Shown here in pieces: positions 2,993 to 30,003 of a stretch of 64,000 bases of DNA; position 1 is the first letter of the stretch; each line of letters opens with the position of its first letter. The translations under genes and the position numbers were made by a program. The notes under the pieces were generated by a model, which was not told the DNA's origin, did not search any database, and saw only the letters and a program-made list of their open reading frames with translations. This DNA is from a virus, in IMG/VR virus record IMGVR_UViG_3300027741_000053, positions 7,669 to 71,668 of that record; one strand, written 5' to 3'.

Positions 2993-3021
2993 TTGACAGT
3001 CAATACCTAACGTGTTGCAAT
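2993..3021 (+). promoter_or_regulatory. Sigma70-like early promoter TTGACA-17-TGCAAT with extended -10 TG
   Basis: Consensus -35 and 17-nt spacer, just upstream of the + strand early cluster. Confidence 0.6.
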
Positions 3022-3066
3022 GGAGTCTCTCTCAACGCAACGCCCTCAGGGCAAAGGACGGAACCC

Positions 3067-3727: not shown

Positions 3728-3832
3728 TCCGGAGACCACCATGCACCACATCCTGAACTTCGTGAACTTCGGCTACGAATGCACCGCCATCTGCGCGCTC
3801 ACCCTCTTAATTTTGTCTTTCGGAGTCTGACG

Positions 3833-12844: not shown

Positions 12845-13143
12845 GTGTTCTTCTCCAAGCTATTGCGTAACATTGCGTCATTCCAGCCTTTCTCATACGC
12901 ATCAGCCAAATCCACTTCGCTATATGCCTTGGCTTCAATCCCGAAATGTTTTTCAATACCTTTTGTTAAATCTTCAAGCCATAGTGTATTAAAATCTCTT
13001 TCATAATCTTCGTTGAGATATCTTACACATTCCCGCACAATCAACTCGGCGAAGCGTTCGAGGTATGGGTCAAACCAATTTAAGTCCCACGATCCGGGAA
13101 TTTCCGCCTCCCGCGCCATGTGGATGATGTCTTCTCTATCCAC
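12841..13143 (-). CDS. Hypothetical protein
   Basis: EDIIHMAREA...LERFAELIVREC motif. Confidence 0.7.
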   Translation of the reverse strand: MDREDIIHMAREAEIPGSWDLNWFDPYLERFAELIVRECVRYLNEDYERDFNTLWLEDLTKGIEKHFGIEAKAYSEVDLADAYEKGWNDAMLRNSLEKNT

Positions 13144-13312
13144 CGTTTTTCTCCTTTAATCTGGCCTCAAGCGCGGCTATCATGTCTATTACATATGGGC
13201 GATTTGCCATCGAAATTTCTTTTGCTTCTTCCTTAGTCAGCCCAACCCACGGGCGCTGTGGACAACAATGACCGCACCGGGGGCAGTCAATCATTAATTT
13301 GCGGTCAGTCAT
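13136..13312 (-). CDS. Small protein with CxxC and WVGLT motif (58 aa, not in ORF track)
   Basis: DCPRCGHCCPQRPWVGLTKEE...EARLKEKN. Confidence 0.6.
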   Translation of the reverse strand: MTDRKLMIDCPRCGHCCPQRPWVGLTKEEAKEISMANRPYVIDMIAALEARLKEKNGG

Positions 13313-13614
13313 ACAGCCTCCCTAAAAAAGTTGCGTAAGTAATAGGCGTAGTCTGGTTCGCCGCCGATATATTCCTGCCCTACCTTTACAGGAGAAGGCT
13401 CTGGAATCACTTCTCTGGGAACGGAGTACACCCATATGGTTTTCTTCCACCCCTCCTTTACCAACACTTTGCGACGAGCAAGCAGCCCACGCTTTGCCAA
13501 TTCTCTAAGGGTTTGTTCAATGGTTGCAGGGGTATATCCGGGAATTTTAACTTCGACCCCGGCTATCTCTCCGTGCGACCATACATGTTTAACTATCGGA
13601 TGATCTCTATCCAT
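13309..13614 (-). CDS. Hypothetical protein, possible winged HTH
   Basis: TPATIEQTLRELAKRGLLARR. Confidence 0.55.
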   Translation of the reverse strand: MDRDHPIVKHVWSHGEIAGVEVKIPGYTPATIEQTLRELAKRGLLARRKVLVKEGWKKTIWVYSVPREVIPEPSPVKVGQEYIGGEPDYAYYLRNFFREAV

Positions 13615-13646
13615 TTAAATTTACAGGCGGCTTTCGCCGCCCGTTT

Positions 13647-13898
13647 TTAGTCCTGTTGTTTGTAAAGTTTGCCTTCCAAATAGCCAATAACTATCATGGC
13701 GGCTTCTTGATTTTTTTTCATTGCTTGAATATAAAGATCTGCACTTTCAAGCTTTTTTTGCAATTCATCAATCTTTTTTTGCAATGAAATGCTTTCTGAT
13801 TGAAAATGCTGAAGCTCTTGGCGCAAAGCTTCCTCTAAACTAATTTCAACAACTTTCTTCTTTACTGGTGGGCGTCCGCGACGTTTATTAGCAACCAT
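13647..13898 (-). CDS. Coiled-coil protein with AT-hook-like KRRGRPP
   Basis: Sequence composition. Confidence 0.55.
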   Translation of the reverse strand: MVANKRRGRPPVKKKVVEISLEEALRQELQHFQSESISLQKKIDELQKKLESADLYIQAMKKNQEAAMIVIGYLEGKLYKQQD

Positions 13899-13937
13899 GA
13901 TTTGTCTCTAAAAAGTTAAAAAATGTGATTGGTTTGG

Positions 13938-14135
13938 TTAAGATTTAACTGGACATTCTTTCCCCTCTAGGCAATCTCCCATACAACATTTGGGAGTTAT
14001 TTTTAAAACAGCGTTGTCCCATCCTGCTGACCACGCATCGTAAATTGCACCTTCCATTGGGTGATATCCTCCCATGGGAATATGTTTGCCATGCATTTCG
14101 TGCCACCATTTTTTCCAGCATTCGCCTTTTTTCAT
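13938..14135 (-). CDS. Hypothetical protein
   Basis: ATGA overlap with the upstream ORF. Confidence 0.55.
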   Translation of the reverse strand: MKKGECWKKWWHEMHGKHIPMGGYHPMEGAIYDAWSAGWDNAVLKITPKCCMGDCLEGKECPVKS

Positions 14136-14407
14136 GCCCGCGCCTTAATTAGTGTTGCAAGTTCGTTTTTTTCCAAAGTTCTTTGAGTGCCTTGGAAAAT
14201 ATGGCTTTCTGTCCATGTCCGAGACCACAAACACTTAATCTCTGGAACTGCGTTTGATGCAATAAGTTCCTTTGTGGTCCACATTACATTACCAAGAGCA
14301 ACCCACTGATGTGGATTGATGTAATGAGGAACAATAATTTGATTAGTGTTTGGAATCCTAAACACCGGCTCAAGTTGAAAATCAGAAAAACGTTGGTTTT
14401 GGTTCAT
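14132..14407 (-). CDS. Hypothetical protein
   Basis: ATGA overlaps on both sides. Confidence 0.55.
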   Translation of the reverse strand: MNQNQRFSDFQLEPVFRIPNTNQIIVPHYINPHQWVALGNVMWTTKELIASNAVPEIKCLWSRTWTESHIFQGTQRTLEKNELATLIKARA

Positions 14408-17552: not shown

Positions 17553-17915
17553 ATGATTTCACCTGCTAGGTTCATACAGCTAAGAGTACCATATCCCCCG
17601 AGTGTCAACCACTACTGGGGGCAGGGGAAGCACGGCAGATTCATCGGAAAGCGTGGCGTAGCCTTCCGTCAAGCGGTCGCTGAAGCCGCAGCAGAGGCCG
17701 GGGTTCAACCCTTACTTGGCAGGCTGTCCGTCCACATTGCCCTCTTTCCACCGGACAAGAGGCAGAGGGACGTAGACAACGTCTTGAAGAGTCTGCTGGA
17801 CGCCTGCGAACACGCGGGGTGTTACGAGTCAGACTCTCAGATCGACGAGCTTCACATTGTTAGGCAGGAGGTCCAGAAGGGCGGCTCCTGCACTATTGTC
17901 GTATTGCCCCTATAA
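17553..17915 (+). CDS. rusA: RusA Holliday junction resolvase
   Basis: PYPPSVNHYW, PPDKRQRDVDNVLKSLLD, DSQID. Confidence 0.9.
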   Translation: MISPARFIQLRVPYPPSVNHYWGQGKHGRFIGKRGVAFRQAVAEAAAEAGVQPLLGRLSVHIALFPPDKRQRDVDNVLKSLLDACEHAGCYESDSQIDELHIVRQEVQKGGSCTIVVLPL

Positions 17916-20900
17916 GAGACATTATTGAGTCGTCTTCCGAAAATCCAGCTTCCCTGCGAAGCGTTTCAACCCCGTCCAGAAGATCATTTTTAGCTTTCAT
18001 CATTTCTACCATGTCTTCCCGTTTTTCCTTGGCGGATACGTCTTTGTCAGTAGACTCACCCTTCAAACGAATTGCTTGGTTAATGTTCTGAAGTTTTTCG
18101 TCAACCTTGTTGATTTTTTTGTAAAGAGCAATCAACCCTGCGTTTTTTTCTCTAAACTCTTCCGCTGACTGATCCTTCTGTCGGATAAATTTCAGTCTTA
18201 ACGTGTTGTATGCAGTATCAACTTCGTCCTTCAGATCATAAAACAACTCCTCCCGACCGCGAGGAACCTCTGGCCGAACGAACGGACCAACTAAAGGAGT
18301 CTGCTTAAGAGGAGTCTCTGGACGTTCTCCTGACGCTTCACCGATTAGGTTAGTAAAGTACTGAGCCAACGCCCCCGCTGAACCAAACGTGCTCTTAACA
18401 ATGTGATCCATTTGCATCGGGTTCAAAGCACCATTGGACAACTTGCTCAACGTTTTCCCTAGCTCAGAAGTCGCAGCCGTGTACTGCTCTTCAGCTAAAA
18501 CTTTTTCAAGTCTCTTGGGAACAATGTCTTTCCCAGACCAAAAATCTTTGTTGAGCCCAATCTCAATAACCGTTTTGACACCAGAAGGAAGAGGGTTTGG
18601 ACCGAGCAAAAGATCCATAGCCGCTTGGGACAATGCCTCCCTAAGTCGCCGACCGTCAACTTCATTATCAGTTCCGTACTTAACTACAGCGTTATAAAAC
18701 ATCTCCGGGATGGCTTTGAAAAAGTAAGCCGCCGCAGTGTTCATAGGGATAACAAAGTTAGTCCCAGGAATAATAAAGTTTCGGAGCCGGGTCTGATCGT
18801 CCAGCTTTAAGTACTCCTCATCGTCCCCAACAGCGAAACAATAAAGAAGAGTAATGCCCATCAACAAGGTTCCTGTTTTAGCCAGCCTTGCTAACGCCGT
18901 TAAACGGTCCATCCCTTTGAGTCCGCCAGTCAACAATGTTTGGGCGAGAACATCAATCTGGTTGGCATATGCCGCCATGAACGGAACGGTCTTGGTTACC
19001 GCTTGGGCTAATCGTCCTGAACCCCTGCGAAGGAAGTTAATAACGTTAGCTGCCTGATACAACGCAAGGTTCGCATCCCCAGTCTCTTTGAGAACCCGAA
19101 TGTAAATGGCTCGCCGTTGGGCCATGTCGGAGGCATCACCCCAGTGATCTAGCCCCCTCAGCACATAGTCAAAAACATTGTTATTGAGAACCCCGATCCG
19201 ACGCTTGACCTCCGCTTCAGGAGTACGGGCAGGGGAATAGAACCCACCAATCCCGGAAGATCTTAGAATTTCAACAATCGGATCGTTTGGCCTTAGAGAC
19301 TGTACAAAACCGTTGAACACTCCACCCATAAGAGCGGCAGGATTCTTCACTCCTGAAACCAGCGCGGCAGTCGGAGCGTCTTGAAAGATCTGCTTCAACT
19401 GGAAGGTTGGAGATATGGTGATTAATCGACGGGTCAGGTTGGCCACTGCGACCAATGGCTTAAACAGCTCTATATCAAGCGTTTTCATCCCAAAGATGGC
19501 TTCAGCTACAAGTGGATCTTGAATCTGAACAATGATTCTTCGACCCTTGTTCACAAAGTAGAACTTCCCTGCCTTAGGATCCACGCTCTCAAATTGCCTG
19601 ATCTGACCCTTAGCGTTCCGGGTTCCGTACTCACTAACAATCCTGCTCGCGGCGTACTGACGTACCGCGTTCATAGTCATACGCATGACGTTCTGCGTCA
19701 TGTTGTCGATGATGTTCTCGATCTCACGATTAGCGGTGATAACAACTTGATCCCCTGCACGAAGAGCCATGTTGAGCGTTACTTGCCCATCAGGAGTCGA
19801 GCTAACCTTAGACGCGGGGACGTTCTTCCCGTTGACCTTGACCGAAACTTGAGAAGACGGTTGAATCTCAAACGCCTTTTGATTAGCCTCAGCCGTGAAC
19901 ACAGTTACGATTCTTGACTTGCCTTCCTTGAAGATTTTTTCCCGGCCAATATTTTGAAGGGTCTTGGTTGTACTTTGGATTGGAGAATGTACATCCTCAT
20001 CTTCGGACATGATCCGATACCAAGGAACGTAGTCCGGGATCTGCGATAGAACGTCATATCGTTTGTCACTCAAAAGGCCAACTTGCTTCCAAACCTTTAG
20101 AAGGTTCTGGTTAACTGCTGTCCAGTTACTCATGATCCTTTGGAGTTCAGGATGTTCTTGATCTCGAGCAATGAACTCTTGAATTTCCTCATCCGACATG
20201 TTCACTTTATCAAGCGCAACCTTGATTGATTTAAGGTCTGCTTCCGCCTCATCCATGGCTTCTTTTGCTCGAAGCTGAATGGCAGGATCAGGATTGTTCA
20301 AAGATTGGTTGTACGCAACCACCGCGTCTTTGTACTCTTGTTCCCGAACTGCGTACTCATCCTTAATACTCTTAGACCGTTTGGCCTCTAAGTAACCTTG
20401 GATAATGTTTTCCCCAAGCTGATCCCCAAGTTTCTTCTTGAGTTCTGCTTGGGCCTTGTAGACGCCAACCATCCCCAACGGGGTCTCAGTTGCTACGAAA
20501 CGCTTATGGGTGTTGTCAAACTTCAGGCCACCCTGCATGACGACCTGAACCCCGATATTCCCGCTACTAATAGCATTATCGAGGGCAACAGAAGCAATCA
20601 CAAGCCCATGACTGTCCTGCAACGCTCCTTTGTATCGTTCAAAGTCTCGAGCGTTTAGACCAGCACCAAACCAAATAAACTTGTTCCGAAGGTACAAAAC
20701 TGCATTTTCAGCACTATTAAATATCTTACCCAGAGCCCATTGGGGATCATTAACGGCATCTCTAAAGAGCTCTGTAGATGCTTTTTTAGCATCAATCACC
20801 CAATCTTTGACTGGGTTAGTCTGAAGCATCGGGACGTTGGGGCGGTTGTACTTGTCAATCAGATCTTCGTCATCCTGACGGTACATGATGTTCTTTTCAT

Positions 20901-23900
20901 TCGGGCTAAATGTCCCGCGATTAAACACCGACTTGATCTGAGTAGGATCAAACACAATCCATTCGTTTGTGTTCTTTCCCCATCCCAAATTTTCACCGTC
21001 AAAGATGATGCCGTCGTATCCAGCTTCTTTAAGTTCTTTGATCGTTTTGGCTGAGATCAACTGAGGGAACTCTGAAGACCCGTTGGCAAATACTTCTCGG
21101 GCGTAGTCCAGCATTCCTGCGTCATCAATCATCAAAGGACTTTGAATGGACAAATACACCGGCATCACGCGGGTTCCTTCAACCTTGGTGCCCAAATTGT
21201 GAGCAGCAGGCTGAACATCTTTGTATGGGCTAAACCAAATAGCCGGTCCACTCAACGTAGGATCAAATCCTCCGGGTTTGAATTCAGTGAAGTCTTGTTT
21301 GGTTGCATGGTAGAAGGTCATCGGCTCGCCATCGTCGTCGATGGCTTTGCTGTTCTTAAACCACTTTTTAAATGCGTCTTCAGATGCCCGCACCGCACCT
21401 CGAGCAAAACCCTTCTCCCGGCCCTTAGCAGCTTCCCGAACCGTCCAGCTTGCACGAACAGCATCACCATAGGTGTACTTGTTGGCATCTCGAATAAGAC
21501 GAATGACCTCAGAATCCCCAACAGGAATCGTGAACCCGATCTTCCTGAGGAAGGTTTTGATCGCGTTAACAAGTCTGTTAACCCACTTTAGCTTGGGATC
21601 CTTCTCCGCCTTCTCAGCAACATACTCTTCGACCGCTTCCTCCTTGGTCATCCACAGATTCGGGTTCTTAACCTGATCCCGGTTTCTCTGGAGACGGGCG
21701 TCAACGTTCTTGCGAACCTCCTCGCTACCATCATAGATGGCGTTCATCATTGGGGCGTAGTCTTCCCCTAGAACTGCTCTCAATCCATAGTGGCCTGCCA
21801 GTTCATGTGCCACAGTCATCCACAGGGCTTGGGGATGAGCAATGTTGTCCGCAATCAGGAAGATTCTGTTTGAGTCCTGATGGAACAACCCCGGCGCCAG
21901 CTCCATCCCGCTGGCCCGCATCTCATTCAAAATGTTCTCAGGTAGGCTGTCAATCTTCTGAACCACCACTATTTCAGGGACTTGACCGCGCTCTCTAACC
22001 GGCTGAATCATTTTGTCGATGTCAGCTTTGCTCATCTTTTTGGATGACCGACGACCAGACATATACATGTTCTGGGCGTTTTGAGACAAAGAGCCAGATG
22101 GAGCGGAGCCTTTTAGCTTCTGCTCCCGAGCTTCGCGGGCACCTTTTTGGTTGCTCGTTGCAATTAGCTGAACACCCTTTTGAACGAGATAGTTAATACC
22201 GTTTATAAATTGCTCATCTTGGTAAACGGTAGATGTTAGATACGCTCCGCTGCCGTAAAAACCATTACCTAAAAGATCGGTTAGGTTTCTATCTTGATGG
22301 TACTGGCCGCCGCTTCTCTTTGGTTTAGAAGCGCTAAAAATATATCTATTGCCTCGTTTTTTGATTAGCAAATGCTTGTCAGGGGTTCCAACCTCAGATA
22401 GGGCTGAGGAATTTAAAAACTCCATGATCTCCCGTGGGTTTGCAAACTCAACAGGAGTGTTTTCTTTAACCTTTGCCCAGTCAAACTGACGAGACATTAG
22501 GATGCCTTGACCAGTCGTCCCGTCTTCTTTTGTATAAGAAATAATTTGGCCGGGGAACTTGGCAAACCCGGCCAACAAATTTCCAGAAACAAGCCAACGC
22601 TTTTCTCGGCGTACCGTTGCACCTTTGTCAAAGGTCTGTATTACCGGGATATCTTCTGCTTGCTGAGTCTCCGGGTTGTACCACATAACCGTGGACTCGG
22701 CAGCCAGTTCATATTTAGTGCCAATTTGGGAAAAGTTTAACGGTAAAGTTTTGTCTTCTCCGTTTGAAACAGCAATATTAATTTTCCAATCAGAACCCGC
22801 TGCTGGATTCTCGGTCCTCTTTGAGTTGGTTACGTTTGTAATAACACCAAACAACTTTTGACCAAGCTTATCCGTAATAGTAACTTGCGTTCCAATTCTG
22901 TAATTCTGTAATACAGCCACGGTCTTGTTTACAGATGCTGAAATTACATCTTGAGCTGCTTGAATTTTGACAGGATCTGGATTTTCTTGAGACTGAAGTT
23001 TTTCAGTAACTTTTCTATAGTACTCACGCGCACGTTCGCGCATGTCCTGTTCTTGCGCTCGAGCGATTGCAACAGGCTGTTCTCCGTTCAAACGGTCTTT
23101 AACAAGTTGTCGGACTTCATCACTAGAGTACGGCTTAACCGTACGCTTAACATCAATCCGCTCCATGATTGCCGGAGCAGCAAACAAAGATAAATCTTCT
23201 TTTTGTTCTGTTATTGGCTCAAAAGATAAGGTTTTAGCGTCAAGGTCTAGTGACTTAGCTTCTAGCTTGTTAGTGCCAAGACTGTCTTCTGAAGCAATAA
23301 GTTCGTTGTATCGACTGATTAGATCTGTGTAAATCTTTTCCTGTTCTTCAATTGGAAGAATAGGAATGTAGCCGGTCAGCTTACGGATATCCCCTTCATC
23401 TGCCTCAGTTGGATCTTCATCCAATGGAAGAATTTTTTGTCCCCCAAGTTTGTTGTGAATCTCTGGGTTATCCCTCAGAAACTCTTGGGCGACCTGACCA
23501 CCATAGTCGTTCATGAAGTCAACAACACCCTCTGCCGTCACCGCCGACTTACGCGAAGCCGTGGTGTTAGCGTTCAGGGACGCCATCTTCTTCATCAAGA
23601 CAGAAGCTGGACGCATCTCGGCTGGGATGTCAGCCATCATTTGGGAATATGCAGGAGCAATAACCTGCCCAGTCCGGTGAACACGCCCCAACATCTGCAT
23701 GTGGGTATCAATGTTCTTCTCAGCTTGCACAATGATCATGTGCCGCTTCTTCTTGTCTTTGACCTTAGAAGAAGCATGAAGCGACAGACCAGTAGATCCT
23801 GCTTGGTTCAGGATCAAAGCATCAATAGTGCCGTTGTTAAACCCTCGTACAGCATTGACTCGATTGCGAATACTGGATGACCGCGACCCAAGGACTGGAG

Positions 23901-26900
23901 TGTCTCCACCATAATTTACCGTGACTTCACGACCAGTAATTTCATCAACTTTGACGTTTCTTTCTTTACCGTCTATGTCTGTAATTTTAACTTTTTCCAG
24001 TTCGTTTTTAATGTAATCAATAGGCGAAATTGGAGCCGATCCAAATCCTGCTTTTTCAATTTGATCAGCAACTCGATTGTAAGCTTCGGTCAGAGTCGGC
24101 CCCAGTTCTTGATCTGACAAATAATGCTCAGTTACTTGTCCGTTTGGAGATTTAATTTTAATTATTCTTTGTTTTTTAAGATACCTCATATACATGTCTT
24201 TAAAAGACATGGATACAGGATCGCCCACTCTAAGGCCCATTTCCTCTGCATAATCCGCAAGAAAAGATCCCATTGTGTTGGAAACGGTAAGAACGGGCTT
24301 TTCTCCAGCCTTTATCAAATCAATAGCTTGTTTGACTGCTTGTTGAACTTTAAGAGCCAGCAACATTTGATCAATCAAGTTGTGCATGATTGATCCAAAG
24401 TTTGCGCTTTGGACTGTGGTTCTTTCTCCTGCCTGACCAGCAACTTCTCCTTTCTTATCCAAATCTTTTTGGATTTCTCGAATCAAACCTTCTTTGGCTC
24501 GAGAGAATGCAAGAATAGATCTCATGGCAGATGCCATGTTTTCTGCGGTAACTTTGTCTACTTCGGCGGGGACCGTGTCATAAGACACACCAGCAAACGT
24601 CCGCTCTCTACGGATGTACTGGCCATCCTTAGTTAACATTGTTGCGACGGCTTGCTGCATAGGAACGCCGCCGTTCTTGATTGCTTCACCAAGTTGTGAA
24701 GGATTGTCTACAGCCAAACTCATGTTTGTGCTGGAGTAAAGACTCATCACATCCGGACGCTTGGCATACGTCGCAGATGAAAAGAACGATCCAAACGACC
24801 TTTGAACAAGACCTCGAACAAATCCGGCTCGTCCAGTAATCTCTTCCTTCTCTTCTCCTTTTTTGCCTTTGGCCTCTCCTGCTCCACCGGCATTATGGCT
24901 TTCATCAAGAATAATATAATTGCCAGCGGCAAAATGGTTAATAAATCTTTGTCTTTCTGTTGTGGCCTTTCGCACAGCCTGCAACTGGCTATAGGTTGTA
25001 AAAATTACTTTGTAAAACGGAGGGTTTCCAAGACTATTATCTATTTGCATTTGCGCCATTAGATCGTTTAAGTCTTTGCCTTTTGCAGGAGCCTTTAAAG
25101 TAAAATTAGTTTCAGTAACTTCTCCGTTTATTTCTCTAACAATAGTATAAGGAACAGAGTCTTTGCTGTTGGTCATGAAGATCTTGGTTGTCTTTTGATC
25201 CAACCCAAGCTCATTGGTCATGCCAATATCGTCAAGATCGCGGATCATGTCCGCGTACAGGTTTGGTTTCTCAGTAACAAAGATAGGAATCTTGTCGTTG
25301 ACCAAAGCGTACTTAATCATCGCGGCAACGACTCGACCTTTACCGATACCCGTCTGGTCGCCAATGATGAACCCTTTCCCAGCTTGGGCATTACTAATAG
25401 CCAACGCAAGAGCGTCAACCTGCTCTGCCGAAAAGTTAAGACGCAAGTCTTCTGGTTCCATCTCAAGAGCTTCTGCAACATAGTTATCAATGTCACCTTG
25501 CTGCTCAACGATTCGATCTAACGCCTCTTGCGTTGCTTGTTGCATTGCAACAGGAGATAGCGTACCAACCGAAGATGCGTTAGATCGAGGAACGTATTCA
25601 ACTTGAGTGGCGGTCTCGGTCTCTGCCCCGCGTCGATCTGTTAGCTTAGATCCGACCCGCTCACCTGTGCTGCCGCTAGGTCCACCCACTCCAGCAGGTC
25701 CGTTTCCTGCAGCGCCTTCAGTGCCTCCGGATTGTACTCCGCCTTCGCCGGGAACACCTTCTTGTCGATTACCGACGCCCTTAGGAACTCCTGTAGGTTC
25801 CAGTTCCCCAGTACTAGGTTTTGCCCCGCGTCCTCCGGGTCTCCCCCCGGCAGGTCCAGCGCCTTGCTCGCTAGGCGTGACGCCTTTGGTCCCGCCTTCT
25901 CCGCCAGTTCCTGTACCCTGTCCGCCAGTGCCTCCAGCCACTCCCTCTCCGTTACCGGCCCCGGCTTGATTCTCACCGCTAGGAGTTCCAGCGGGGCGCT
26001 CATTCCTTGTGGAGACCACGCGACCATTTAACTTCTCCTTTAGTTCATCCCACGAGTTGTAAATCTTGGGTAGCTCCGCCGCAGGCAATGCCCGCTCCGA
26101 CTCCCCCCTTCCCTCAATCACAATCACATCAACAGGATACGAAGCGCCCTGCTTTGTATATAGATCGCCAGCCACTGTGAAGTGGTCAACAATGTTATAT
26201 TGGTTGTACAAATTGTAATAAAATGCCCGCTTTGCCGCGCCACGGTAGGCTTCTGTCCGGCCTTCATCTGAAGTCGGCAGCACTCCACCAACAATCAAAA
26301 CCGCACGGCCTTTGTCTTTCATGGTTTCTAAAGCCTTGAAAGCAATCGCGTGATCTATCTCGTTTGTGCTGTAGCCTTCCTTTACCGTGAACGAGATCGT
26401 CTTGCCGTTCTCGTCCTTAACCGCGCCAAATGGAGGGTTGGCAATCACAACGTCTTGTGACTTGGAAGCGGCAAGCTCATTCGTTGCCGCGTTCTGTGTG
26501 GTCACGGTAAATCCGAGCGCTCGCATCATCGCGGCACGAGTCGGGTTGAGTTCGTTAGCTATCGCGTTGTTAACCGACGCTCCGATCAAAAGCATCCCGT
26601 TGCCTGCGGTAGGCTCAAGCACCTTACTTTCAGGAGTCACCCCGGCAAGTTCAGACGCAAGGTAGGCCAATGGGACAGGAGTTGAGTACGCCTGATCCCG
26701 GATGCTTTCAGATGAACGAGTAGCCAAGTTGGGCTGTCGATTCAACAGACCAACCAGCCTATCATATACAACTTGATTGCCCCGCTTGCGTCCGGCTTTA
26801 ATGATCTCTCGAGCAGCCAGCACAATAGCCGTTTCAACGGTCTCGTCTGCTTGTTTGGCTAGTTCCGTTCCGGGCTCAATCTTTTGACCAGTGATCTCGC

Positions 26901-29900
26901 CAATCTTTTGACGAGCCTCAACGATGGTCTTAAACGAACCATCACCAATTAAATAGTCAGCTAGTTCTTGGGCAACTTGGAACTTACCCTCAGGAGTCAG
27001 AAGATCTGGCTTGGCTTCTTTTTCTTCAACCTTTTCTTCTTGTTTCTCTGTTTTGACTGCCCCGCTTTGAACGTCTTGGATAAACCGGATGACATATTTT
27101 TTCATCCGTTCAAGAACAGGCTGGCCAAACTTTGCTTTGACCATATCAATGATCATCTTCATGGCTTGCCGGATGTCTGAGGCAGCCTGTTTTAGATGAG
27201 ATATAGCCTCTAAAAATATAGGCTTTGCTTTGGCATAGGTTTCTTCATCAAACCCAATGCCAGATCGAAGCGTTGTTGTGTCGCCCGCTCCAAATAGTTC
27301 ACCAAGTGCATCAATAGACTTTGCCAAACCTGTGCCAGTTTCTTTGGCGGCACTACCCAAAAGCCCCGGAACTGTTGGCGTCTTAGCTTCTTTTGGAGCG
27401 GCTGGCTCTACCTTAGGAGGAGGATTGCCTGCTGCAATCTCCTCAAACATTGCGTCAAGTTGTTCTTCACTAAAGTGCTGCGGAGTTAACTGTTCAGGAG
27501 CTTCTTCAGGAGCTTCTTCAGAAAGCTCATCAAACATTTTGCTCAGTTCATCTTCAGTCAGCGGCTCAGTTGCAGGAGCCTTAGGCTCTTCAGGAGTTTC
27601 TGTTTTTAGCTCCTCAGTGGGCTTTTCTTCCGGCTTGGCTTCTAGTTCATCTAACCTAGCCTCAAGCTCATCACGTTGTTTGATACCAATATTTGGATTC
27701 TTCAACGTTTCACGGATGCGAGAAATCTCTTGCTCTGGCGTTTCAGTTTTAGGAACCTCTTCAACCTTAACATTGTTAGGTTCGTTCTTTTTTTCTTCAG
27801 GGGTTTGAAAAGGTTTGGCCTTTTCAATCTGTTCTTGAGCAAACTCCCGAGCCTTGACTTCTGCCTCATCCCCAAAGTTTTTTGTGGGAAAAATACGAGC
27901 CGATCCCGGAACATAGTTGCCAGAGTCAACATCAAACATGTTGGCTACATAACCCGTTGGCGTCTTAACAATGTGATACTCAACATTGTTGCCAACTGGC
28001 AATTGGTCAACGACCCCTAACATTTTTAGAACATCAACGTTAGGCAACTTTTGTTGGATCTGACCAACCGTCTGGCCGTTCTGCACCATCCGTCGAACTT
28101 GCTGCTCTACGTTGATTTCTTTGAGACGAACTTGAACTTGAGGATCGTTGGCAAACGCCCGAACCTCTTCAGGAGTATTGAAGGTAATCCCTGCTTCTTT
28201 GGCCGCGATCAGAACGGGCTCTTCAATACCACTTACTTTGGTCTCACCTTTTTGTTGAGCATCAAAGATTCCTTGGTAAAGGTTATCCGTCATCCCCTTG
28301 GCTGCGCCTTGGAATGCTTCCTTAATACTAGGAAGAGGGGCAACCTCTTCTTCCTCTACAATCCCAAGCTTGGGCTCCGCAGTTGGTGCTTCAACTTTTG
28401 GAGGTTCTTCCTGTGGAAGGCTTGGCTCAACTTTGTTAGCAGGTTGAGTTTGCCCGATTGTTGGCTCTCGCTTGGTTGACGGAGTAAGCTCGCCTAGCTT
28501 TGGCTCTCTGCTCTTTAGTGGAGCAAACGCATCTTCCCACGCACGGATTGCACGATCTTTAGCTCCTTCTGCTTCCGCATATTGAAGCTTTTCCGATGGC
28601 CCGCGTTCTTGCAGTTTGGCCAATCCAGCACTTGCGCCGGACATGATCCCACCCTGCATGATGGTTTGGGCAACCGTATCCCCCACCGCTCCAAGGTAAT
28701 CCTTAAACGTAGCGTTAGGATTGAGACCGATTCCGGGAGCAAGATCAGTAACAAACTGACCAGTTGTAGTAAACAGTTCACCCGGAAGTTCTTTCTTTAG
28801 AGTGTTAGATAAGAACTCTTTGGCCGCATCCAAAGGCATCCCATCAGCAATCTTTTTCAGTGCTGAAAGATTTCCTTTAATACCAAACCGTTCCCCAATA
28901 CCTTCAAGCGCCGCGTACAATGCAGCCCTAGCTGACGCTTCTACGCCGTCCAAACCTTTGGCTCGACCGTCTGAATACTCCTGACCAAAGGAGTTAACGA
29001 TCATGCTGCCAAGGGATATAGCTGCTCTTCCCGTAATTGCTCCGCCAAACATAGATGGAGCTTGTTGAGCAATCGAGCTAATCGCGCCTTCTAAGTTCCG
29101 CTCAAGGAATGTGCCCTTTTCTCCAAGACCCTCTTCAGTACCCCTAACTTTGTTAGCGTACCGAACCATGTCTTTGCCGGTGTCCTCAAGCCCAAGCCCA
29201 TCTGCAATGGCTTGGTTAACACCCAGCGATGCTTTGCCAAGAGCTAACGCACCTTTGGTCACGCCCCGAGCAATCGGGTTATTTAGGCCGGGTTTTGCAA
29301 ATGTTCTAGCAATATCAAAGTTAACATCAGTCTTTTCAACTTTGCCGGGGAACAACGCAGCTTCTTCTTCACCCGGTTTGACGCCACTGGCAATGCCTAC
29401 GTTAGTTAGATAATTAGCTACATCTTTTGAATAGCCCTTACGGCGTAATATTTCTTCACGCGCTTCCCGCCGAGGATCCACCATAGCCAAGGCGCCTTTG
29501 GGAACCTCTTTTGGATATGCTTGTGCCAGTTCTTTTGTGATAACTCCTACATATCCTGGCGCGGACTCGAGAAGCTTCCGCTGCTCTGGCGTGGCATTTT
29601 CCCATGCCGTTGTTACGCGGCGGCGCTCAGTTTCTGATACCGGCAACGTCGCACTAGGCAACGGAGCGCGTTTGGGAACATTCTCCATAAGCGCCCCAAG
29701 ACCTTTGACCTCTTGAGGAGGGGCTGGAGGAGGAGGCGCAGGAGCCTTCCGTGGCAGACCAATGACTGGCTGTTCACGAAGCTGCTGTTGAGCTTTCTTA
29801 ATATCTTCTTCGCCAAAGCCTAGCGAAGGCATTTCAGCTTTTGGAGCTTTTTCTTTAAGCGCGGGAACAATCTCCCACTGGCCGTTTACTTCATAAGCCA

Positions 29901-30003
29901 TTTCCCCTGTATCGGGGTTTTTTGCTATTTGTGATGGTGGGACCCACTCTCCGTTAACCTGAAATAGAACTTCGCCCGTTGTCGGGTTGTAAGCACGTTC
30001 CAT
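17893..30003 (-). CDS. 4036-aa polyvalent DarB-like virion protein: N6-adenine MTase, Strawberry-notch-type SF2 helicase, zincin-like peptidase, ART-like domain, LPD38-like C-terminus
   Basis: EPTAGNG/NPPF (~26430); GDQTGIGKGR (~25350); DESH (~24900); QMLGRVHRTGQ; HELAGHYGLR (~21800); FYHAT...FSP...PVYL...GYDGIIF...E (~20900-21350). Confidence 0.8.
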   Translation of the reverse strand: MERAYNPTTGEVLFQVNGEWVPPSQIAKNPDTGEMAYEVNGQWEIVPALKEKAPKAEMPSLGFGEEDIKKAQQQLREQPVIGLPRKAPAPPPPAPPQEVKGLGALMENVPKRAPLPSATLPVSETERRRVTTAWENATPEQRKLLESAPGYVGVITKELAQAYPKEVPKGALAMVDPRREAREEILRRKGYSKDVANYLTNVGIASGVKPGEEEAALFPGKVEKTDVNFDIARTFAKPGLNNPIARGVTKGALALGKASLGVNQAIADGLGLEDTGKDMVRYANKVRGTEEGLGEKGTFLERNLEGAISSIAQQAPSMFGGAITGRAAISLGSMIVNSFGQEYSDGRAKGLDGVEASARAALYAALEGIGERFGIKGNLSALKKIADGMPLDAAKEFLSNTLKKELPGELFTTTGQFVTDLAPGIGLNPNATFKDYLGAVGDTVAQTIMQGGIMSGASAGLAKLQERGPSEKLQYAEAEGAKDRAIRAWEDAFAPLKSREPKLGELTPSTKREPTIGQTQPANKVEPSLPQEEPPKVEAPTAEPKLGIVEEEEVAPLPSIKEAFQGAAKGMTDNLYQGIFDAQQKGETKVSGIEEPVLIAAKEAGITFNTPEEVRAFANDPQVQVRLKEINVEQQVRRMVQNGQTVGQIQQKLPNVDVLKMLGVVDQLPVGNNVEYHIVKTPTGYVANMFDVDSGNYVPGSARIFPTKNFGDEAEVKAREFAQEQIEKAKPFQTPEEKKNEPNNVKVEEVPKTETPEQEISRIRETLKNPNIGIKQRDELEARLDELEAKPEEKPTEELKTETPEEPKAPATEPLTEDELSKMFDELSEEAPEEAPEQLTPQHFSEEQLDAMFEEIAAGNPPPKVEPAAPKEAKTPTVPGLLGSAAKETGTGLAKSIDALGELFGAGDTTTLRSGIGFDEETYAKAKPIFLEAISHLKQAASDIRQAMKMIIDMVKAKFGQPVLERMKKYVIRFIQDVQSGAVKTEKQEEKVEEKEAKPDLLTPEGKFQVAQELADYLIGDGSFKTIVEARQKIGEITGQKIEPGTELAKQADETVETAIVLAAREIIKAGRKRGNQVVYDRLVGLLNRQPNLATRSSESIRDQAYSTPVPLAYLASELAGVTPESKVLEPTAGNGMLLIGASVNNAIANELNPTRAAMMRALGFTVTTQNAATNELAASKSQDVVIANPPFGAVKDENGKTISFTVKEGYSTNEIDHAIAFKALETMKDKGRAVLIVGGVLPTSDEGRTEAYRGAAKRAFYYNLYNQYNIVDHFTVAGDLYTKQGASYPVDVIVIEGRGESERALPAAELPKIYNSWDELKEKLNGRVVSTRNERPAGTPSGENQAGAGNGEGVAGGTGGQGTGTGGEGGTKGVTPSEQGAGPAGGRPGGRGAKPSTGELEPTGVPKGVGNRQEGVPGEGGVQSGGTEGAAGNGPAGVGGPSGSTGERVGSKLTDRRGAETETATQVEYVPRSNASSVGTLSPVAMQQATQEALDRIVEQQGDIDNYVAEALEMEPEDLRLNFSAEQVDALALAISNAQAGKGFIIGDQTGIGKGRVVAAMIKYALVNDKIPIFVTEKPNLYADMIRDLDDIGMTNELGLDQKTTKIFMTNSKDSVPYTIVREINGEVTETNFTLKAPAKGKDLNDLMAQMQIDNSLGNPPFYKVIFTTYSQLQAVRKATTERQRFINHFAAGNYIILDESHNAGGAGEAKGKKGEEKEEITGRAGFVRGLVQRSFGSFFSSATYAKRPDVMSLYSSTNMSLAVDNPSQLGEAIKNGGVPMQQAVATMLTKDGQYIRRERTFAGVSYDTVPAEVDKVTAENMASAMRSILAFSRAKEGLIREIQKDLDKKGEVAGQAGERTTVQSANFGSIMHNLIDQMLLALKVQQAVKQAIDLIKAGEKPVLTVSNTMGSFLADYAEEMGLRVGDPVSMSFKDMYMRYLKKQRIIKIKSPNGQVTEHYLSDQELGPTLTEAYNRVADQIEKAGFGSAPISPIDYIKNELEKVKITDIDGKERNVKVDEITGREVTVNYGGDTPVLGSRSSSIRNRVNAVRGFNNGTIDALILNQAGSTGLSLHASSKVKDKKKRHMIIVQAEKNIDTHMQMLGRVHRTGQVIAPAYSQMMADIPAEMRPASVLMKKMASLNANTTASRKSAVTAEGVVDFMNDYGGQVAQEFLRDNPEIHNKLGGQKILPLDEDPTEADEGDIRKLTGYIPILPIEEQEKIYTDLISRYNELIASEDSLGTNKLEAKSLDLDAKTLSFEPITEQKEDLSLFAAPAIMERIDVKRTVKPYSSDEVRQLVKDRLNGEQPVAIARAQEQDMRERAREYYRKVTEKLQSQENPDPVKIQAAQDVISASVNKTVAVLQNYRIGTQVTITDKLGQKLFGVITNVTNSKRTENPAAGSDWKINIAVSNGEDKTLPLNFSQIGTKYELAAESTVMWYNPETQQAEDIPVIQTFDKGATVRREKRWLVSGNLLAGFAKFPGQIISYTKEDGTTGQGILMSRQFDWAKVKENTPVEFANPREIMEFLNSSALSEVGTPDKHLLIKKRGNRYIFSASKPKRSGGQYHQDRNLTDLLGNGFYGSGAYLTSTVYQDEQFINGINYLVQKGVQLIATSNQKGAREAREQKLKGSAPSGSLSQNAQNMYMSGRRSSKKMSKADIDKMIQPVRERGQVPEIVVVQKIDSLPENILNEMRASGMELAPGLFHQDSNRIFLIADNIAHPQALWMTVAHELAGHYGLRAVLGEDYAPMMNAIYDGSEEVRKNVDARLQRNRDQVKNPNLWMTKEEAVEEYVAEKAEKDPKLKWVNRLVNAIKTFLRKIGFTIPVGDSEVIRLIRDANKYTYGDAVRASWTVREAAKGREKGFARGAVRASEDAFKKWFKNSKAIDDDGEPMTFYHATKQDFTEFKPGGFDPTLSGPAIWFSPYKDVQPAAHNLGTKVEGTRVMPVYLSIQSPLMIDDAGMLDYAREVFANGSSEFPQLISAKTIKELKEAGYDGIIFDGENLGWGKNTNEWIVFDPTQIKSVFNRGTFSPNEKNIMYRQDDEDLIDKYNRPNVPMLQTNPVKDWVIDAKKASTELFRDAVNDPQWALGKIFNSAENAVLYLRNKFIWFGAGLNARDFERYKGALQDSHGLVIASVALDNAISSGNIGVQVVMQGGLKFDNTHKRFVATETPLGMVGVYKAQAELKKKLGDQLGENIIQGYLEAKRSKSIKDEYAVREQEYKDAVVAYNQSLNNPDPAIQLRAKEAMDEAEADLKSIKVALDKVNMSDEEIQEFIARDQEHPELQRIMSNWTAVNQNLLKVWKQVGLLSDKRYDVLSQIPDYVPWYRIMSEDEDVHSPIQSTTKTLQNIGREKIFKEGKSRIVTVFTAEANQKAFEIQPSSQVSVKVNGKNVPASKVSSTPDGQVTLNMALRAGDQVVITANREIENIIDNMTQNVMRMTMNAVRQYAASRIVSEYGTRNAKGQIRQFESVDPKAGKFYFVNKGRRIIVQIQDPLVAEAIFGMKTLDIELFKPLVAVANLTRRLITISPTFQLKQIFQDAPTAALVSGVKNPAALMGGVFNGFVQSLRPNDPIVEILRSSGIGGFYSPARTPEAEVKRRIGVLNNNVFDYVLRGLDHWGDASDMAQRRAIYIRVLKETGDANLALYQAANVINFLRRGSGRLAQAVTKTVPFMAAYANQIDVLAQTLLTGGLKGMDRLTALARLAKTGTLLMGITLLYCFAVGDDEEYLKLDDQTRLRNFIIPGTNFVIPMNTAAAYFFKAIPEMFYNAVVKYGTDNEVDGRRLREALSQAAMDLLLGPNPLPSGVKTVIEIGLNKDFWSGKDIVPKRLEKVLAEEQYTAATSELGKTLSKLSNGALNPMQMDHIVKSTFGSAGALAQYFTNLIGEASGERPETPLKQTPLVGPFVRPEVPRGREELFYDLKDEVDTAYNTLRLKFIRQKDQSAEEFREKNAGLIALYKKINKVDEKLQNINQAIRLKGESTDKDVSAKEKREDMVEMMKAKNDLLDGVETLRREAGFSEDDSIMSLIGAIRQ
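25641..26027 (-). CDS. Probable overprinted 128-aa gene nested out of frame in the giant ORF
   Basis: AAGGAG RBS 7 nt before ATG; helical, protein-like sequence; the main frame here is a low-complexity Gly-rich linker. Confidence 0.6.
   Translation of the reverse strand: MVAWSPQGMSAPLELLAVRIKPGPVTEREWLEALADRVQELAEKAGPKASRLASKALDLPGGDPEDAGQNLVLGNWNLQEFLRASVIDKKVFPAKAEYNPEALKALQETDLLEWVDLAAAQVSGSDLS

What the first reader, a model, noticed from the sequence alone, without database searches (positions are those of the whole stretch)
25641..26040. Probable overprinted gene nested inside the 4036-aa protein
Seen: a 128-codon same-strand, out-of-frame ORF with AAGGAG 7 nt before its ATG. It encodes an amphipathic helical sequence (EREWLEALADRVQELAEKA...LQETDLLEWVDLAAAQV). 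The main frame over this interval degenerates into a Gly/Glu/Pro linker between the MTase and helicase domains, as expected when a second frame is under selection. Inference: a co-expressed chaperone, inhibitor or partner of the polyvalent protein that standard gene callers would miss.
Basis: partly seen in the sequence, partly recalled or inferred. Interest (0 to 1): 0.72.

Follow-up and report, generated by a model that had tools for sequence, protein, structure and literature searches.

The report
Hidden gene inside giant phage gene
A complete 128-codon gene for a small, well-folded acidic protein of an undescribed family is written one base out of frame inside the floppy linker of a 4036-codon phage anti-defence gene, and related phages have kept both readings of this DNA intact, so it is a genuine gene within a gene that annotation pipelines miss.

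Summary
In detail: window 25641..26027 (- strand) is a 128-codon ORF in the +1 frame of the 4036-aa polyvalent gene, with AAGGAG 7 nt before its ATG. ORF length alone is not significant, because a Gly-rich linker rarely makes stops (P 0.06-0.26). Comparative evidence settles it. All 31 distinct related phage loci keep the ORF (128-132 codons, same frame and ends). Codon-position variability flips to the nested frame. pN/pS is 0.59 in the nested frame and 1.29 in the main frame. AAG-GAG and xAT-G are invariant at synonymous sites. AlphaFold2 folds the nested product confidently (pLDDT 89, pTM 0.84). The same DNA read in the main frame is disordered (pLDDT 47). A free-standing copy (L035) keeps the ORF while the other frame has five stops. 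A profile search finds 146 clusters, including bacterial fusions to membrane anchors, ankyrin repeats and a GIY-YIG nuclease. A GC-rich Burkholderiales polyvalent gene has the same nested arrangement. No Pfam, PHROG, NCBIfam, PADLOC, PDB or BFVD relative was found. Function is inferred only: probably a co-expressed binding partner of the methylase-helicase dyad or an independent counter-defence protein. First readers of this scan noted the same ORF in two other genomes, and follow-ups described analogous tnpV-in-polyvalent cases.

The parts
25641..26027 (-). Nested gene: 128 codons plus a TAA stop, in frame +1 of the polyvalent gene. The product P0001 is acidic (pI 4.6) with an alpha/beta fold.
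   Evidence: It is conserved in 31 of 31 distinct nested relatives. Its pN/pS is 0.59. AF2 gives pLDDT 89.4 and pTM 0.84.
26035..26040 (-). Shine-Dalgarno sequence AAGGAG, 7 nt before the nested ATG. In the main frame it is read as Lys-Glu.
   Evidence: AAG is used in 31 of 31 loci (background use 0.60) and GAG in 31 of 31 (background 0.47), while neighbouring Lys and Leu codons vary. AAGGAG-N7-ATG is present in 48 of 55 distinct ORFs of the helicase-anchored set. Five more keep an SD core although the main-frame residues differ. GGAG-N7-ATG is present in the GC-rich locus L055.
26025..26030 (-). TAA (nested frame) directly followed by the nested ATG. The ATG is built from the last two bases of main-frame Asn (AAT) and the first G of the next codon.
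   Evidence: The N/D codon ends in T in 31 of 31 loci (AAT background 0.33, GAT background 0.49). In 30 of 31 distinct nested loci the nested frame opens exactly at the ATG.
25642..26028 (-). Main-frame reading of the same DNA: the Gly/Glu/Pro/Thr-rich disordered tether (residues 1326-1454) between the methylase and the helicase.
   Evidence: Its pN/pS is 1.29. AF2 with a matched 28-row alignment gives pLDDT 46.9, pTM 0.12 and no secondary structure. The probability that this frame stays open given the nested protein is 2.5e-6 to 1.9e-4.
17893..30003 (-). Host gene: a 4036-aa polyvalent (DarB-like) protein.
   Evidence: Pfam matches: N6_Mtase, AAA_34, Helicase_C_4, ART-PolyVal and LPD38.
26029..26898 (-). 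Methyltransferase region directly upstream of the nested gene (main residues 1036-1325).
   Evidence: Pfam N6_Mtase at 1168-1242. Alignment A6 has a mean column identity of 64%. The flank control shows normal main-frame codon periodicity.
24553..25383 (-). First lobe of the Strawberry-notch-type helicase (AAA_34, main residues 1541-1817), downstream of the nested gene.
   Evidence: Alignments A5 and A7. Flank control.

Best explanation
Window 25641..26027 (- strand) is a genuine protein-coding gene embedded in the +1 frame of the polyvalent gene.

Shown: the ORF, its exact start and stop, and its amino-acid sequence are under purifying selection across a large group of uncultured short-tailed phages and a distant GC-rich Burkholderiales polyvalent gene. 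The product is predicted to be a compact alpha/beta domain of about 130 aa and belongs to a family that also exists as free-standing and fused genes. The same bases read in the main frame form a disordered tether. That tether is kept open and T-poor at main codon position 1, but its residues drift.

Inferred: the nested protein is made by independent initiation on the polyvalent mRNA at a strong, conserved Shine-Dalgarno sequence (AAGGAG-N7-ATG). No promoter-like site lies upstream. It is therefore co-expressed with the polyvalent protein, probably in molar excess, because the polyvalent gene's own ribosome-binding site is weak.

Inferred function (about 0.35): a binding module that works with the methylase-helicase dyad, in assembly, packaging or control in the producing cell. 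An independent counter-defence effector is nearly as likely (about 0.3). Bacterial relatives fused to membrane anchors, ankyrin repeats or a GIY-YIG nuclease suggest a protein- or ligand-binding (sensor or adaptor) role in phage-host conflict.
For: Conservation.
- In 45 of 46 loci fetched with the nested protein, and in the window, the ORF is 128-132 codons, starts at ATG after AAGGAGAAnnTnn, and sits at the same offset in a main frame that is open over the whole locus.
- These loci comprise 31 distinct nested DNAs.
- In a set anchored on the helicase alone, 70 of 80 loci have a +1-frame hit to the family HMM, all at offset +1.
- In 28 loci with full flanks, the only +1 run present at a fixed position in 28 of 28 is this one.

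Selection.
- Entropy by nested codon position 1/2/3 is 0.75/0.63/0.99, against main-frame 0.52/0.36/1.37 and 0.51/0.33/1.38 in the two flanks.
- pN/pS is 0.59 in the nested frame, 1.29 in the main frame and 0.97 in the third frame.
- Among isolated differences in 38 close pairs, 335 are nested-synonymous and main-changing (2.71 times the opportunity). 109 are the converse (0.70 times).

Start signals.
- AAG, GAG and xAT are invariant in 31 of 31 loci at synonymous sites.
- An SD core is kept where main-frame residues changed, in L126, L130, L129, L105 and L120 and in L055.

Protein.
- P0001 against P0003 gives 41% identity, E 3e-25. The main-frame readings of the same DNA give 32 bits with 15% gaps.
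- AF2 gives pLDDT 89.4 and pTM 0.84 for the nested frame, against 46.9 and 0.12 for the main-frame control.

Independent life of the family.
- Free-standing L035 is 65% identical, has its own upstream region and has 5 stops in the other frame.
- No methylase or helicase remnants are found in L035.
- A profile search finds 146 clusters at E<=1e-3.
- These include WP_128000194.1 of Piscinibacter defluvii and TM, ankyrin, GIY-YIG and tandem architectures.

Dual constraint.
- P(main frame open | nested protein) is at most 1.9e-4 in all 31 loci.
- T at nested codon position 3 is 0.06 (0.02 in the window), against 0.17 in free-standing L035 and 0.32 at third positions of the main gene.
Against: There is no direct evidence of translation, neither peptides nor ribosome footprints. 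ORF length alone is unremarkable. AAGGAG is also Lys-Glu in a conserved main-frame motif (LKEKLN), so part of its conservation could serve the main protein. The pairwise counts use related sequences and are not independent events, and standard dN/dS is biased in overlaps. Only 16 of 36 crude gene starts in the window have an SD core, so SD use is not universal in this phage. Function has no experimental or homology support. No Pfam, PHROG, NCBIfam, PADLOC, PDB or BFVD match was found. Ten of 80 helicase-anchored loci gave no direct HMM hit. One of these is cut by a contig end, three are recovered by iteration, and the others are borderline or not significant.
Confidence: 0.88

Rival explanations
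1. Chance open frame. A Gly/Glu/Pro-rich linker has few codons that can make a +1-frame stop, so a long ORF with an accidental AAGGAG (Lys-Glu) and ATG appears without being a gene.
For: Synonymous resampling gives a run of at least 128 codons in 5.8-26% of trials. P(nested frame open | main protein) is 0.037-0.36 over 31 loci. Other +1 runs of 70-256 codons occur elsewhere in these genes.
Against: Those other runs are not positionally conserved, whereas this one is present in 28 of 28 loci. The nested product is more conserved than the main reading. Codon periodicity flips to the nested frame. The product folds confidently while the main-frame control does not. Free-standing and fused homologs exist.
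Confidence: 0.02
2. Programmed +1 frameshift product. Ribosomes translating the polyvalent frame shift into the nested frame and make a truncated protein (N-terminal part plus methylase plus this domain) rather than a separate 128-aa protein.
For: Both frames are on one mRNA, and no promoter-like site lies upstream. In some relatives the nested frame is open further upstream (135-226 codons: L064-L066, L106, L107, L109, L110, L115-L117).
Against: In 30 of 31 distinct nested loci a nested-frame stop lies directly before the ATG, so a shift would have to occur inside the ORF. The ATG and an SD at fixed spacing are conserved at synonymous sites. Free-standing and fused homologs begin at the same domain boundary. 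No slippery-site search was done.
Confidence: 0.05
3. Untranslated relic or RNA-level constraint. The sequence is conserved for mRNA structure, or as the fossil of a once separate gene, and no protein is made from it in the phage today.
For: There is no expression data for the protein. The single RNA-library contig (26038-26184) does not cover the ORF.
Against: The pattern of change is that of a protein: nested position 3 is the most variable, and nested-synonymous changes are favoured 2.71 against 0.70 per opportunity. This holds across relatives down to 38% identity and a more distant GC-rich relative. A fossil would accumulate stops at the rate implied.
Confidence: 0.04

Closest known systems
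Rz/Rz1 spanin genes of phage lambda (recalled from my own knowledge; no paper was read here)
   Same: A complete gene lies in the +1 frame, on the same strand, wholly inside another phage gene. It has its own ribosome-binding site and start, and both products are functional.
   Different: Rz1 is about 60 codons, encodes a lipoprotein, and is the known partner of Rz. Here the nested gene has 128 codons and lies in a disordered inter-domain linker of a 4036-aa protein. Its family and partner are unknown.
comS nested out of frame in srfAB of Bacillus subtilis (recalled from my own knowledge)
   Same: A small gene is embedded out of frame inside a giant multi-domain gene and is translated from the same mRNA.
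   Different: comS is 46 codons, lies inside a catalytic module, and is restricted to one lineage. Here the nested product is a folded 130-aa domain with 146 sequence clusters and free-living copies.
tnpV nested in linkers of polyvalent genes of Firmicutes conjugative elements
   Same: A gene of about 120 codons with its own SD is nested out of frame in a flexible linker of a giant polyvalent gene, and both frames are kept in many relatives.
   Different: This protein does not match TnpV. PF14198 gave 0 of 53 members at E<=5 and no six-frame hit in the phage record at E<=10. The host here is a phage, not a conjugative element. I did not verify those notes.
P1 DarB and the methylase-helicase dyad of polyvalent proteins (Iyer et al. 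2017, PMC5512222; section 14 was read, and word finds were run over the whole text)
   Same: The host gene has the adenine-methylase plus SWI2/SNF2 (Strawberry-notch-type) helicase dyad, together with ART-PolyVal and LPD38 domains.
   Different: The paper's text has no occurrence of 'overlapping' or 'frameshift'. A second gene inside the dyad's linker is not described there. Its supplementary files were not seen.

Membership tests
Same-strand nested overlapping gene pair (Rz/Rz1 type) | A complete ORF lies inside another ORF, on the same strand and in a different frame. | tested here: met
   frame +1, main residues 1326-1454.
Same-strand nested overlapping gene pair (Rz/Rz1 type) | The nested gene has its own translation start signals. 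| tested here: met
   AAGGAG-N7-ATG. It is invariant at synonymous sites in 31 of 31 loci and present in 48 of 55 distinct ORFs plus 5 with another SD core. This is sequence-level evidence only.
Same-strand nested overlapping gene pair (Rz/Rz1 type) | Both frames are maintained by selection. | tested here: met
   The nested frame has pN/pS 0.59 and the codon periodicity flips to it. The main frame is kept open although P is at most 1.9e-4.
Same-strand nested overlapping gene pair (Rz/Rz1 type) | Both proteins are detected experimentally. | not testable with these tools
   No proteomics or ribosome profiling is available. The RNA contig does not cover the ORF.
TnpV (Pfam PF14198) | A match to the family HMM. 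| tested here: not met
   0 of 53 family members match at E<=5. There is no six-frame match in the phage record at E<=10. A profile-profile or fold comparison was not possible because no TnpV sequences were in hand.
Polyvalent protein with DarB-like methylase-helicase dyad (the host gene) | An adenine methylase fused to an SF2/SNF2-type helicase, plus domains specific to polyvalent proteins. | tested here: met
   N6_Mtase, AAA_34, Helicase_C_4, ResIII, ART-PolyVal and LPD38. The same set, with InPase and RadC, is found in L055.
Programmed ribosomal frameshift product | The alternative frame is open upstream of the shift site, and no independent start is needed. | tested here: not met
   A stop lies directly before the ATG in 30 of 31 distinct loci. 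The ATG and SD are conserved. A slippery motif was not searched for.
Acidic DNA-mimic anti-restriction proteins (Ocr, ArdA; recalled) | A strongly acidic small protein. | tested here: met
   The pI is 4.58. The median is 4.39 for 32 close members, and 47 of 53 diverse members are below 5.5.
Acidic DNA-mimic anti-restriction proteins (Ocr, ArdA; recalled) | Fold or sequence similarity to a known mimic. | tested here: not met
   Foldseek best E is 1.5 against PDB and 1.9 against BFVD. A PDB profile search gave 0 hits at E<=1.
Known anti-phage defence proteins (PADLOC) | A match of the domain to a defence-system model. | tested here: not met
   0 of 53 members match. The fusion proteins match only through their ankyrin or T5orf172 parts.

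The most novel reading that the evidence does not exclude
The family was born inside the disordered methylase-helicase tether of a phage polyvalent gene, where the main frame only has to stay open. It was refined there into a stable fold, and it was then exported repeatedly to bacteria. In bacteria it became free-standing or was fused to membrane, ankyrin and GIY-YIG nuclease modules, possibly as a captured 'key' that senses incoming polyvalent proteins. On the tree, the bacterial fused and free-standing copies sit within the radiation of nested phage copies, with distant nested copies (L055, L131) on the other side of the midpoint root. Wider relatives of the dyad are fused without a recognisable nested gene (Acinetobacter phage MD-2021a).
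Probability: 0.25. Interest if true: 0.92.

Novelty: new variant of a known kind. Interest (0 to 1): 0.78.

Why it matters
Long same-strand overlapping genes with solid evolutionary support are rare in bacteria and tailed phages, and gene callers exclude them by design. In this case the evidence is clean and the overlap is old.

- **Hidden protein in an anti-defence gene.** The large 'polyvalent' anti-defence proteins that phages inject carry a second, hidden protein whose family has no name, no solved structure and no detectable structural neighbour.
- **Selection split between two frames.** The nested frame is selected for its amino-acid sequence. The main frame is selected only for openness and composition.
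- **A natural experiment.** Escaped copies keep the protein and lose the other frame.
- **A clean genetic handle.** Main-frame-synonymous changes can knock out the nested gene alone.
- **Bacterial fusions point to function.** Fusions to membrane and nuclease modules suggest the domain is a recognition module in phage-host conflict, which makes its function experimentally approachable.
- **A possibly general pattern.** Together with the tnpV cases noted by this scan, it suggests that linkers of polyvalent genes are a recurrent home for hidden genes.

Tried and rejected
- **ORF length as evidence.** Rejected: the nulls give P of 0.06-0.26.
- **GenBank phages.** A blastn 'distant' search with 4 kb and tblastn searches with P0001 and with the L055 nested protein gave no match. 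The helicase segment found only three distant records at 28-29% identity. Of these, BS-TP4 has a 121-codon +1 ORF in the equivalent linker that does not match the family HMM (E 3.3), and MD-2021a has none.
- **Genome contigs.** Alignment A2 gave no relative.
- **Viral contigs.** P0044, P0110 and P0038 gave none, so the contexts of most distant family members remain unknown.
- **Cellular genomes.** 3 of 301 Burkholderiales-order genomes and 1 of 401 genomes of the phylum (the centre genome itself) had a match. The family was not found in the others searched.
- **Family libraries.** Pfam, PHROGs, NCBIfam and PADLOC gave nothing consistent. The Atlas gave no usable hit. The PDB sequence profile gave none. 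Foldseek against PDB and BFVD gave none.
- **TnpV lead from earlier notes.** Not met.
- **Complex prediction.** The job (methylase region A6, helicase region A7, nested protein A2 as partner) returned 'no answer', with scores of 0.00 and 0.00. This counts neither for nor against binding.
- **Sequencing runs.** One metatranscriptome run holds a single 151-nt contig at 26038-26184, just upstream of the ORF. The other runs laid were DNA contigs of related strains. This is no evidence of expression.
- **Promoter and terminator scan of 25400-26600.** None found.
- **Literature.** Searches (listings and abstract openings only), and word finds plus section 14 of PMC5512222, gave no report of a gene nested in a polyvalent gene. 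Supplementary files were not seen.
Full report
**1. The observation**

The window carries a 4036-codon ORF on the - strand (17893..30003). A 128-codon ATG-started ORF lies at 25641..26027 on the same strand. It is in frame +1 of the large ORF and covers main-frame residues 1326-1454.

Read on the - strand, AAGGAG lies at 26040-26035. It is followed by the 7-nt spacer AAGTTAA and then ATG at 26027-26025. The last three spacer bases are a TAA in the nested frame.

The large protein (P0002) matches the following Pfam families:
- N6_Mtase (1168-1242)
- AAA_34 (1541-1817)
- Helicase_C_4 (2018-2178)
- ART-PolyVal (2889-3028)
- LPD38 (3728-3905)

The ORF therefore spans the Gly/Glu/Pro/Thr-rich stretch between the methylase and the helicase.

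**2. The ORF alone is not surprising**

The stretch has 63% G+C against 48% for the gene, and the excess is concentrated at main-frame positions 1 and 2. Only 12 residue pairs in the region can make a +1 stop at all.

Resampling synonymous codons while keeping the main protein gave a stop-free +1 run of at least 128 codons in 26% of 20000 trials with gene-wide usage, and in 5.8% with local permutation. An exact dynamic-programming version gave 0.18 for the window and 0.037-0.36 (median 0.17) over 31 related loci. Taken alone, the ORF could be a by-product of linker composition.

**3. Relatives keep it**

A first relative, L002, is 55% identical in the flanking protein. It has a 131-codon ORF in the same frame, with the same start context and the same stop position.
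- The two nested products align at 41% identity over their whole length (E 3e-25).
- The two main-frame readings of the same DNA give 32 bits with 15% gaps.

The protein collection held seven clusters, 53-91% identical and 119-131 aa long. All were called on short contigs of 442-1423 bases, which fits gene callers choosing this frame only when the giant ORF is truncated.

Pattern searches with their alignment fetched 31 viral and 15 metagenome loci. In 45 of these 46 loci, and in the window, the following hold:
- The ORF is 128-132 codons long.
- It starts at ATG after AAGGAGAAnnTnn.
- It lies at the same offset in a main frame that is open across the whole locus.
- The third frame is closed.

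These loci comprise 31 distinct nested DNAs plus one exception, L035.

As a set not chosen through the nested protein, I anchored a search on the helicase N-terminus. It found 129 relatives, of which the best 80 were kept. The results were:
- 70 of 80 have a +1-frame hit to the family HMM at E<=1e-3, all at offset +1.
- One of the 10 without a hit is cut by its contig end.
- The other nine carry 93-132-codon +1 ORFs in the linker.
- Iterated HMMs recover L125, L127 and L123 (E<1e-3 at Z=1000).
- L132 (0.005) and L128 (0.014) are borderline, and L134 and L124 are not significant.
- Reversed and main-frame decoys score E>=1.

In the 28 loci with full 3-kb flanks, other +1 runs of 70 codons or more occur at scattered, non-conserved positions. 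The run at this position is present in 28 of 28.

**4. Selection acts on the nested frame**

Mean column entropy by codon position, over 126 gap-free codon columns of the 31 nested sequences and in 150-codon flanks aligned the same way:

| Region | Position 1 | Position 2 | Position 3 |
|---|---|---|---|
| Overlap, nested-frame positions | 0.75 | 0.63 | 0.99 |
| Upstream flank, main-frame positions | 0.52 | 0.36 | 1.37 |
| Downstream flank, main-frame positions | 0.51 | 0.33 | 1.38 |

Within the overlap, the most variable position is main-frame position 1 and the least variable is main-frame position 3. The flanks show the normal pattern. The phase of coding periodicity therefore flips inside the overlap.

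Nei-Gojobori proportions over 465 pairs and mean pairwise identity:

| Frame | pN/pS | Mean pairwise identity |
|---|---|---|
| Nested | 0.59 | 56% |
| Main | 1.29 | 43% |
| Third | 0.97 | 45% |

Among isolated single-base differences in the 38 pairs that differ by at most 20%:
- 335 are silent in the nested frame and change the main frame (2.71 times their share of opportunities).
- 109 are the converse (0.70 times).
- 93 change both frames (0.34 times).

These counts use related sequences and are not independent events. Standard estimators are also biased in overlaps. But the direction is consistent in every measure, and the flanks serve as a control.

**5. The main frame is constrained too, in a different way**

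Given the nested protein and the loci's own codon usage, the probability that the main frame stays open across the overlap is 2.5e-6 to 1.9e-4 in the 31 loci. Yet it is open in all of them.

The price is visible at nested codon position 3. T is 0.06 (0.02 in the window) and G is 0.56, against T of 0.32 at third positions elsewhere in the gene.

The main reading varies in residues but keeps a Gly/Glu/Arg/Pro/Ser/Thr-rich make-up (alignment A8).

**6. The start signals are conserved at synonymous sites**

In the 31 distinct nested loci:
- The Lys codon of the SD is AAG in 31 of 31 (use elsewhere in these loci 0.60).
- The Glu codon is GAG in 31 of 31 (0.47).
- The Asn/Asp codon that supplies 'AT' of the ATG ends in T in 31 of 31 (AAT 0.33, GAT 0.49).
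- The adjacent Lys is AAA 18 times and AAG 13 times, and the two flanking Leu codons use five to six different codons.

In the helicase-anchored set, 48 of 55 distinct ORFs have AAGGAG-N7-ATG. Five more have another SD core at the same place although the main-frame residues differ (ELKGKLNE, QLKGKLNE, EVGAKLDA, EVGAKLDG, IGRKLNDA). Two were scored 'none'. One of these, L106, shows AAGGAG before a slightly earlier ATG.

In a GC-rich (68%) Burkholderiales genome, a 4541-aa polyvalent gene carries InPase, N6_Mtase, AAA_34, Helicase_C_4, RadC and LPD38 domains. It holds a 140-codon +1 ORF between the methylase and the helicase that matches the family (E 6e-15). That ORF starts at GGAG-N7-ATG, where the main frame reads LLESGDG instead of LKEKLNG. 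The signal is thus kept where the main protein has changed.

In the window itself, full AAGGAG occurs before only 3 of 36 crude gene starts, all in the capsid region. The polyvalent gene's own start has a weak AAAGG. No sigma-70-like promoter or terminator was found in 25400-26600. I infer translation from the polyvalent mRNA by independent initiation. This inference has not been tested.

**7. The product is a real protein family**

AlphaFold2 with a 34-row alignment gives mean pLDDT 89.4 and pTM 0.84. The model has short strands at 2-4, 18-20, 23-25 and 94-96, and helices at 13-16, 27-45, 47-56, 64-73, 76-84, 100-108 and 111-123. The matched control is the main-frame reading of the same DNA with a 28-row alignment from the same loci. 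It gives pLDDT 46.9, pTM 0.12 and no secondary structure.

A profile search of 1.84 billion cluster representatives found 146 clusters at E<=1e-3, 79 at E<=1e-10 and 27 at E<=1e-30. The architectures are:
- proteins of about 125-150 aa
- proteins of 330-350 aa with the domain at the N-terminus
- a tandem duplicate (P0014)
- the domain at the C-terminus behind several predicted membrane helices (P0031, P0032, P0052, P0102, P0128)
- the domain behind membrane helices plus ankyrin repeats (P0024)
- the domain behind a T5orf172/GIY-YIG module (P0035, identical to RefSeq WP_128000194.1 of Piscinibacter defluvii)
- the domain behind a shared 'MRIEKGI...LSGDSG' N-domain (P0019, P0030, P0040)

Invariant residues in the close set are L15, W30, L34, R37, G68, L71, V72, N75, L78, P93, W114, A118 and L127. 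Across 53 diverse members, P6 and R37 are invariant, and W4, L34 and W114 are nearly so.

The family is acidic. The median pI is 4.39 for 32 close members, and 47 of 53 diverse members are below 5.5.

No known family or fold matches:
- Pfam, PHROGs, NCBIfam and PADLOC
- PDB by sequence profile
- Foldseek against PDB (best E 1.5) and BFVD (best E 1.9)
- the protein Atlas

**8. A natural experiment**

L035 is a 2796-base metagenome contig that carries a free-standing 131-codon copy, 65% identical to the window's protein.
- It has its own A+T-rich upstream region.
- It sits between the end of another gene and a divergently oriented HExxH protein.
- The frame that would be the polyvalent frame has five stops within the ORF.
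- T at codon position 3 rises to 0.17.
- tblastn with the whole polyvalent protein finds only the frame-shifted shadow of the linker and no methylase or helicase remnant.

The unit that moved is exactly the nested ORF. It stayed intact while the other reading decayed.

**9. Distribution and context**

The family is rare in cellular genomes. 3 of 301 genomes sampled from the order of the Piscinibacter genome had a match. Of 401 sampled from its phylum, only the centre genome did.

One hit is the nested copy in L055. Another, L054, is a 313-aa protein ending in the domain. It sits beside an XRE-type HTH gene, a PLD+SNF2 helicase and a LEM-3-like GIY-YIG gene, on a stretch that also has an integrase-like gene. 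I identified the integrase by eye, not by a search.

A maximum-likelihood tree of 46 rows puts the C-terminal domains of the bacterial fusions and several short forms within the radiation of nested phage copies. The distant nested copies L055 and L131 lie across the midpoint root. Many forks are open and several branches are long.

This fits export from phages to bacteria but does not prove it. The direction of origin is unresolved between birth in the linker and a read-through fusion across an older gene. The methylase-helicase dyad is 'nearly always' fused in polyvalent proteins generally (PMC5512222, section 14). A distant fused dyad in Acinetobacter phage MD-2021a has an acidic linker without a long +1 ORF. 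Both facts lean towards birth or insertion within an existing linker.

**10. How it most likely works**

Shown:
- A second, conserved, foldable protein is encoded in the linker.
- Its start signals are conserved.
- Both frames are maintained.

Inferred:
- Ribosomes initiate at the nested ATG on the polyvalent mRNA.
- The protein is therefore made whenever the polyvalent gene is expressed, probably in excess over it.

For function I commit, with low confidence (about 0.35), to a binding partner of the methylase-helicase dyad. It would act as an assembly or packaging aid, or as a brake on the dyad in the producing cell. The grounds are the deep positional linkage and the pattern of bacterial fusions, in which the domain sits behind effector-like modules as a recognition domain would. 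An independent acidic counter-defence effector is nearly as likely (about 0.3).

The single complex prediction gave no verdict and counts for nothing.

**11. Known or new**

Nested same-strand genes are known in phages and bacteria (Rz/Rz1, comS in srfAB; recalled). The kind is therefore known.

I found no report of a gene nested in a polyvalent gene in six literature searches (listings only). The 2017 survey of polyvalent proteins does not contain the words 'overlapping' or 'frameshift'. Supplementary files were not seen.

Within this scan:
- First readers noted what appears to be the same 132-aa nested ORF in two other genomes (e1-6284009, e1-6270520).
- Follow-up agents described tnpV nested in polyvalent genes of Firmicutes conjugative elements.

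The present protein does not match TnpV. I rate it a new variant of a known kind with an undescribed protein family. Interest is high because the evidence is unusually clean and the case is experimentally tractable.

Noticed in passing
window 1-2318 and 61683-64000: The first 2318 bases of the window are identical to the last 2318, at an offset of 61682. The genome unit is therefore about 61.7 kb, and the 71668-base record is terminally redundant or concatemeric.
   Followed up: partly
L035 363-758 (+): A free-standing 131-codon homolog of the nested gene, with its own upstream region. The other frame has five stops, and there are no polyvalent-gene remnants. Its neighbours are the end of an upstream gene (1-270) and a 195-aa HExxH protein (1592-2179, -).
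   Followed up: yes
L054 1269-7575 (G051:C57): A bacterial island carrying a PLD+SNF2 helicase (1125 aa), an XRE HTH, a 313-aa protein that ends in this domain, and a LEM-3-like GIY-YIG protein. An integrase-like gene lies at 13142-14380. It may be a defence or mobile-element cassette.
   Followed up: partly
L055 33-13658 (-) (G091:C78): A 4541-aa polyvalent gene (InPase, N6_Mtase, AAA_34, Helicase_C_4, RadC, LPD38) in a 68% G+C Burkholderiales genome. It has the same nested +1 gene between the methylase and the helicase, and GGAG-N7-ATG before it.
   Followed up: yes
L137 2109-2474 (+) (Bacteroides phage BS-TP4, PQ571277.1, inside gp3): The equivalent methylase-helicase linker of this distant, cultured phage is also Gly/Glu/Arg/Thr-rich. 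It carries a 121-codon +1 ORF that reads like a protein but does not match the family HMM (E 3.3).
   Followed up: partly
L123 1031-1336, L128 1136-1414, L132 692-982 (+): More distant relatives carry shorter +1-frame ORFs (93-102 codons) in the linker. They share an LLSGNP...SWLL-like motif and are borderline to the family HMM. They may be a truncated or diverged form of the nested gene.
   Followed up: partly
window 49696 and 40520 (- strand ATGs): There are two further AAGGAG-N5-9-ATG sites. One opens a 67-codon Lys-rich ORF. The other lies in frame inside the ORF 40170..40607 and may be its true start, giving 116 codons.
   Followed up: no
P0031, P0032, P0052, P0102, P0128, P0024, P0035 (protein ids): Members of the family with N-terminal membrane helices, ankyrin repeats or a T5orf172/GIY-YIG module in front of the domain. 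This layout is reminiscent of single-protein sensor-effector defence proteins. There is no PADLOC match for the domain itself.
   Followed up: partly
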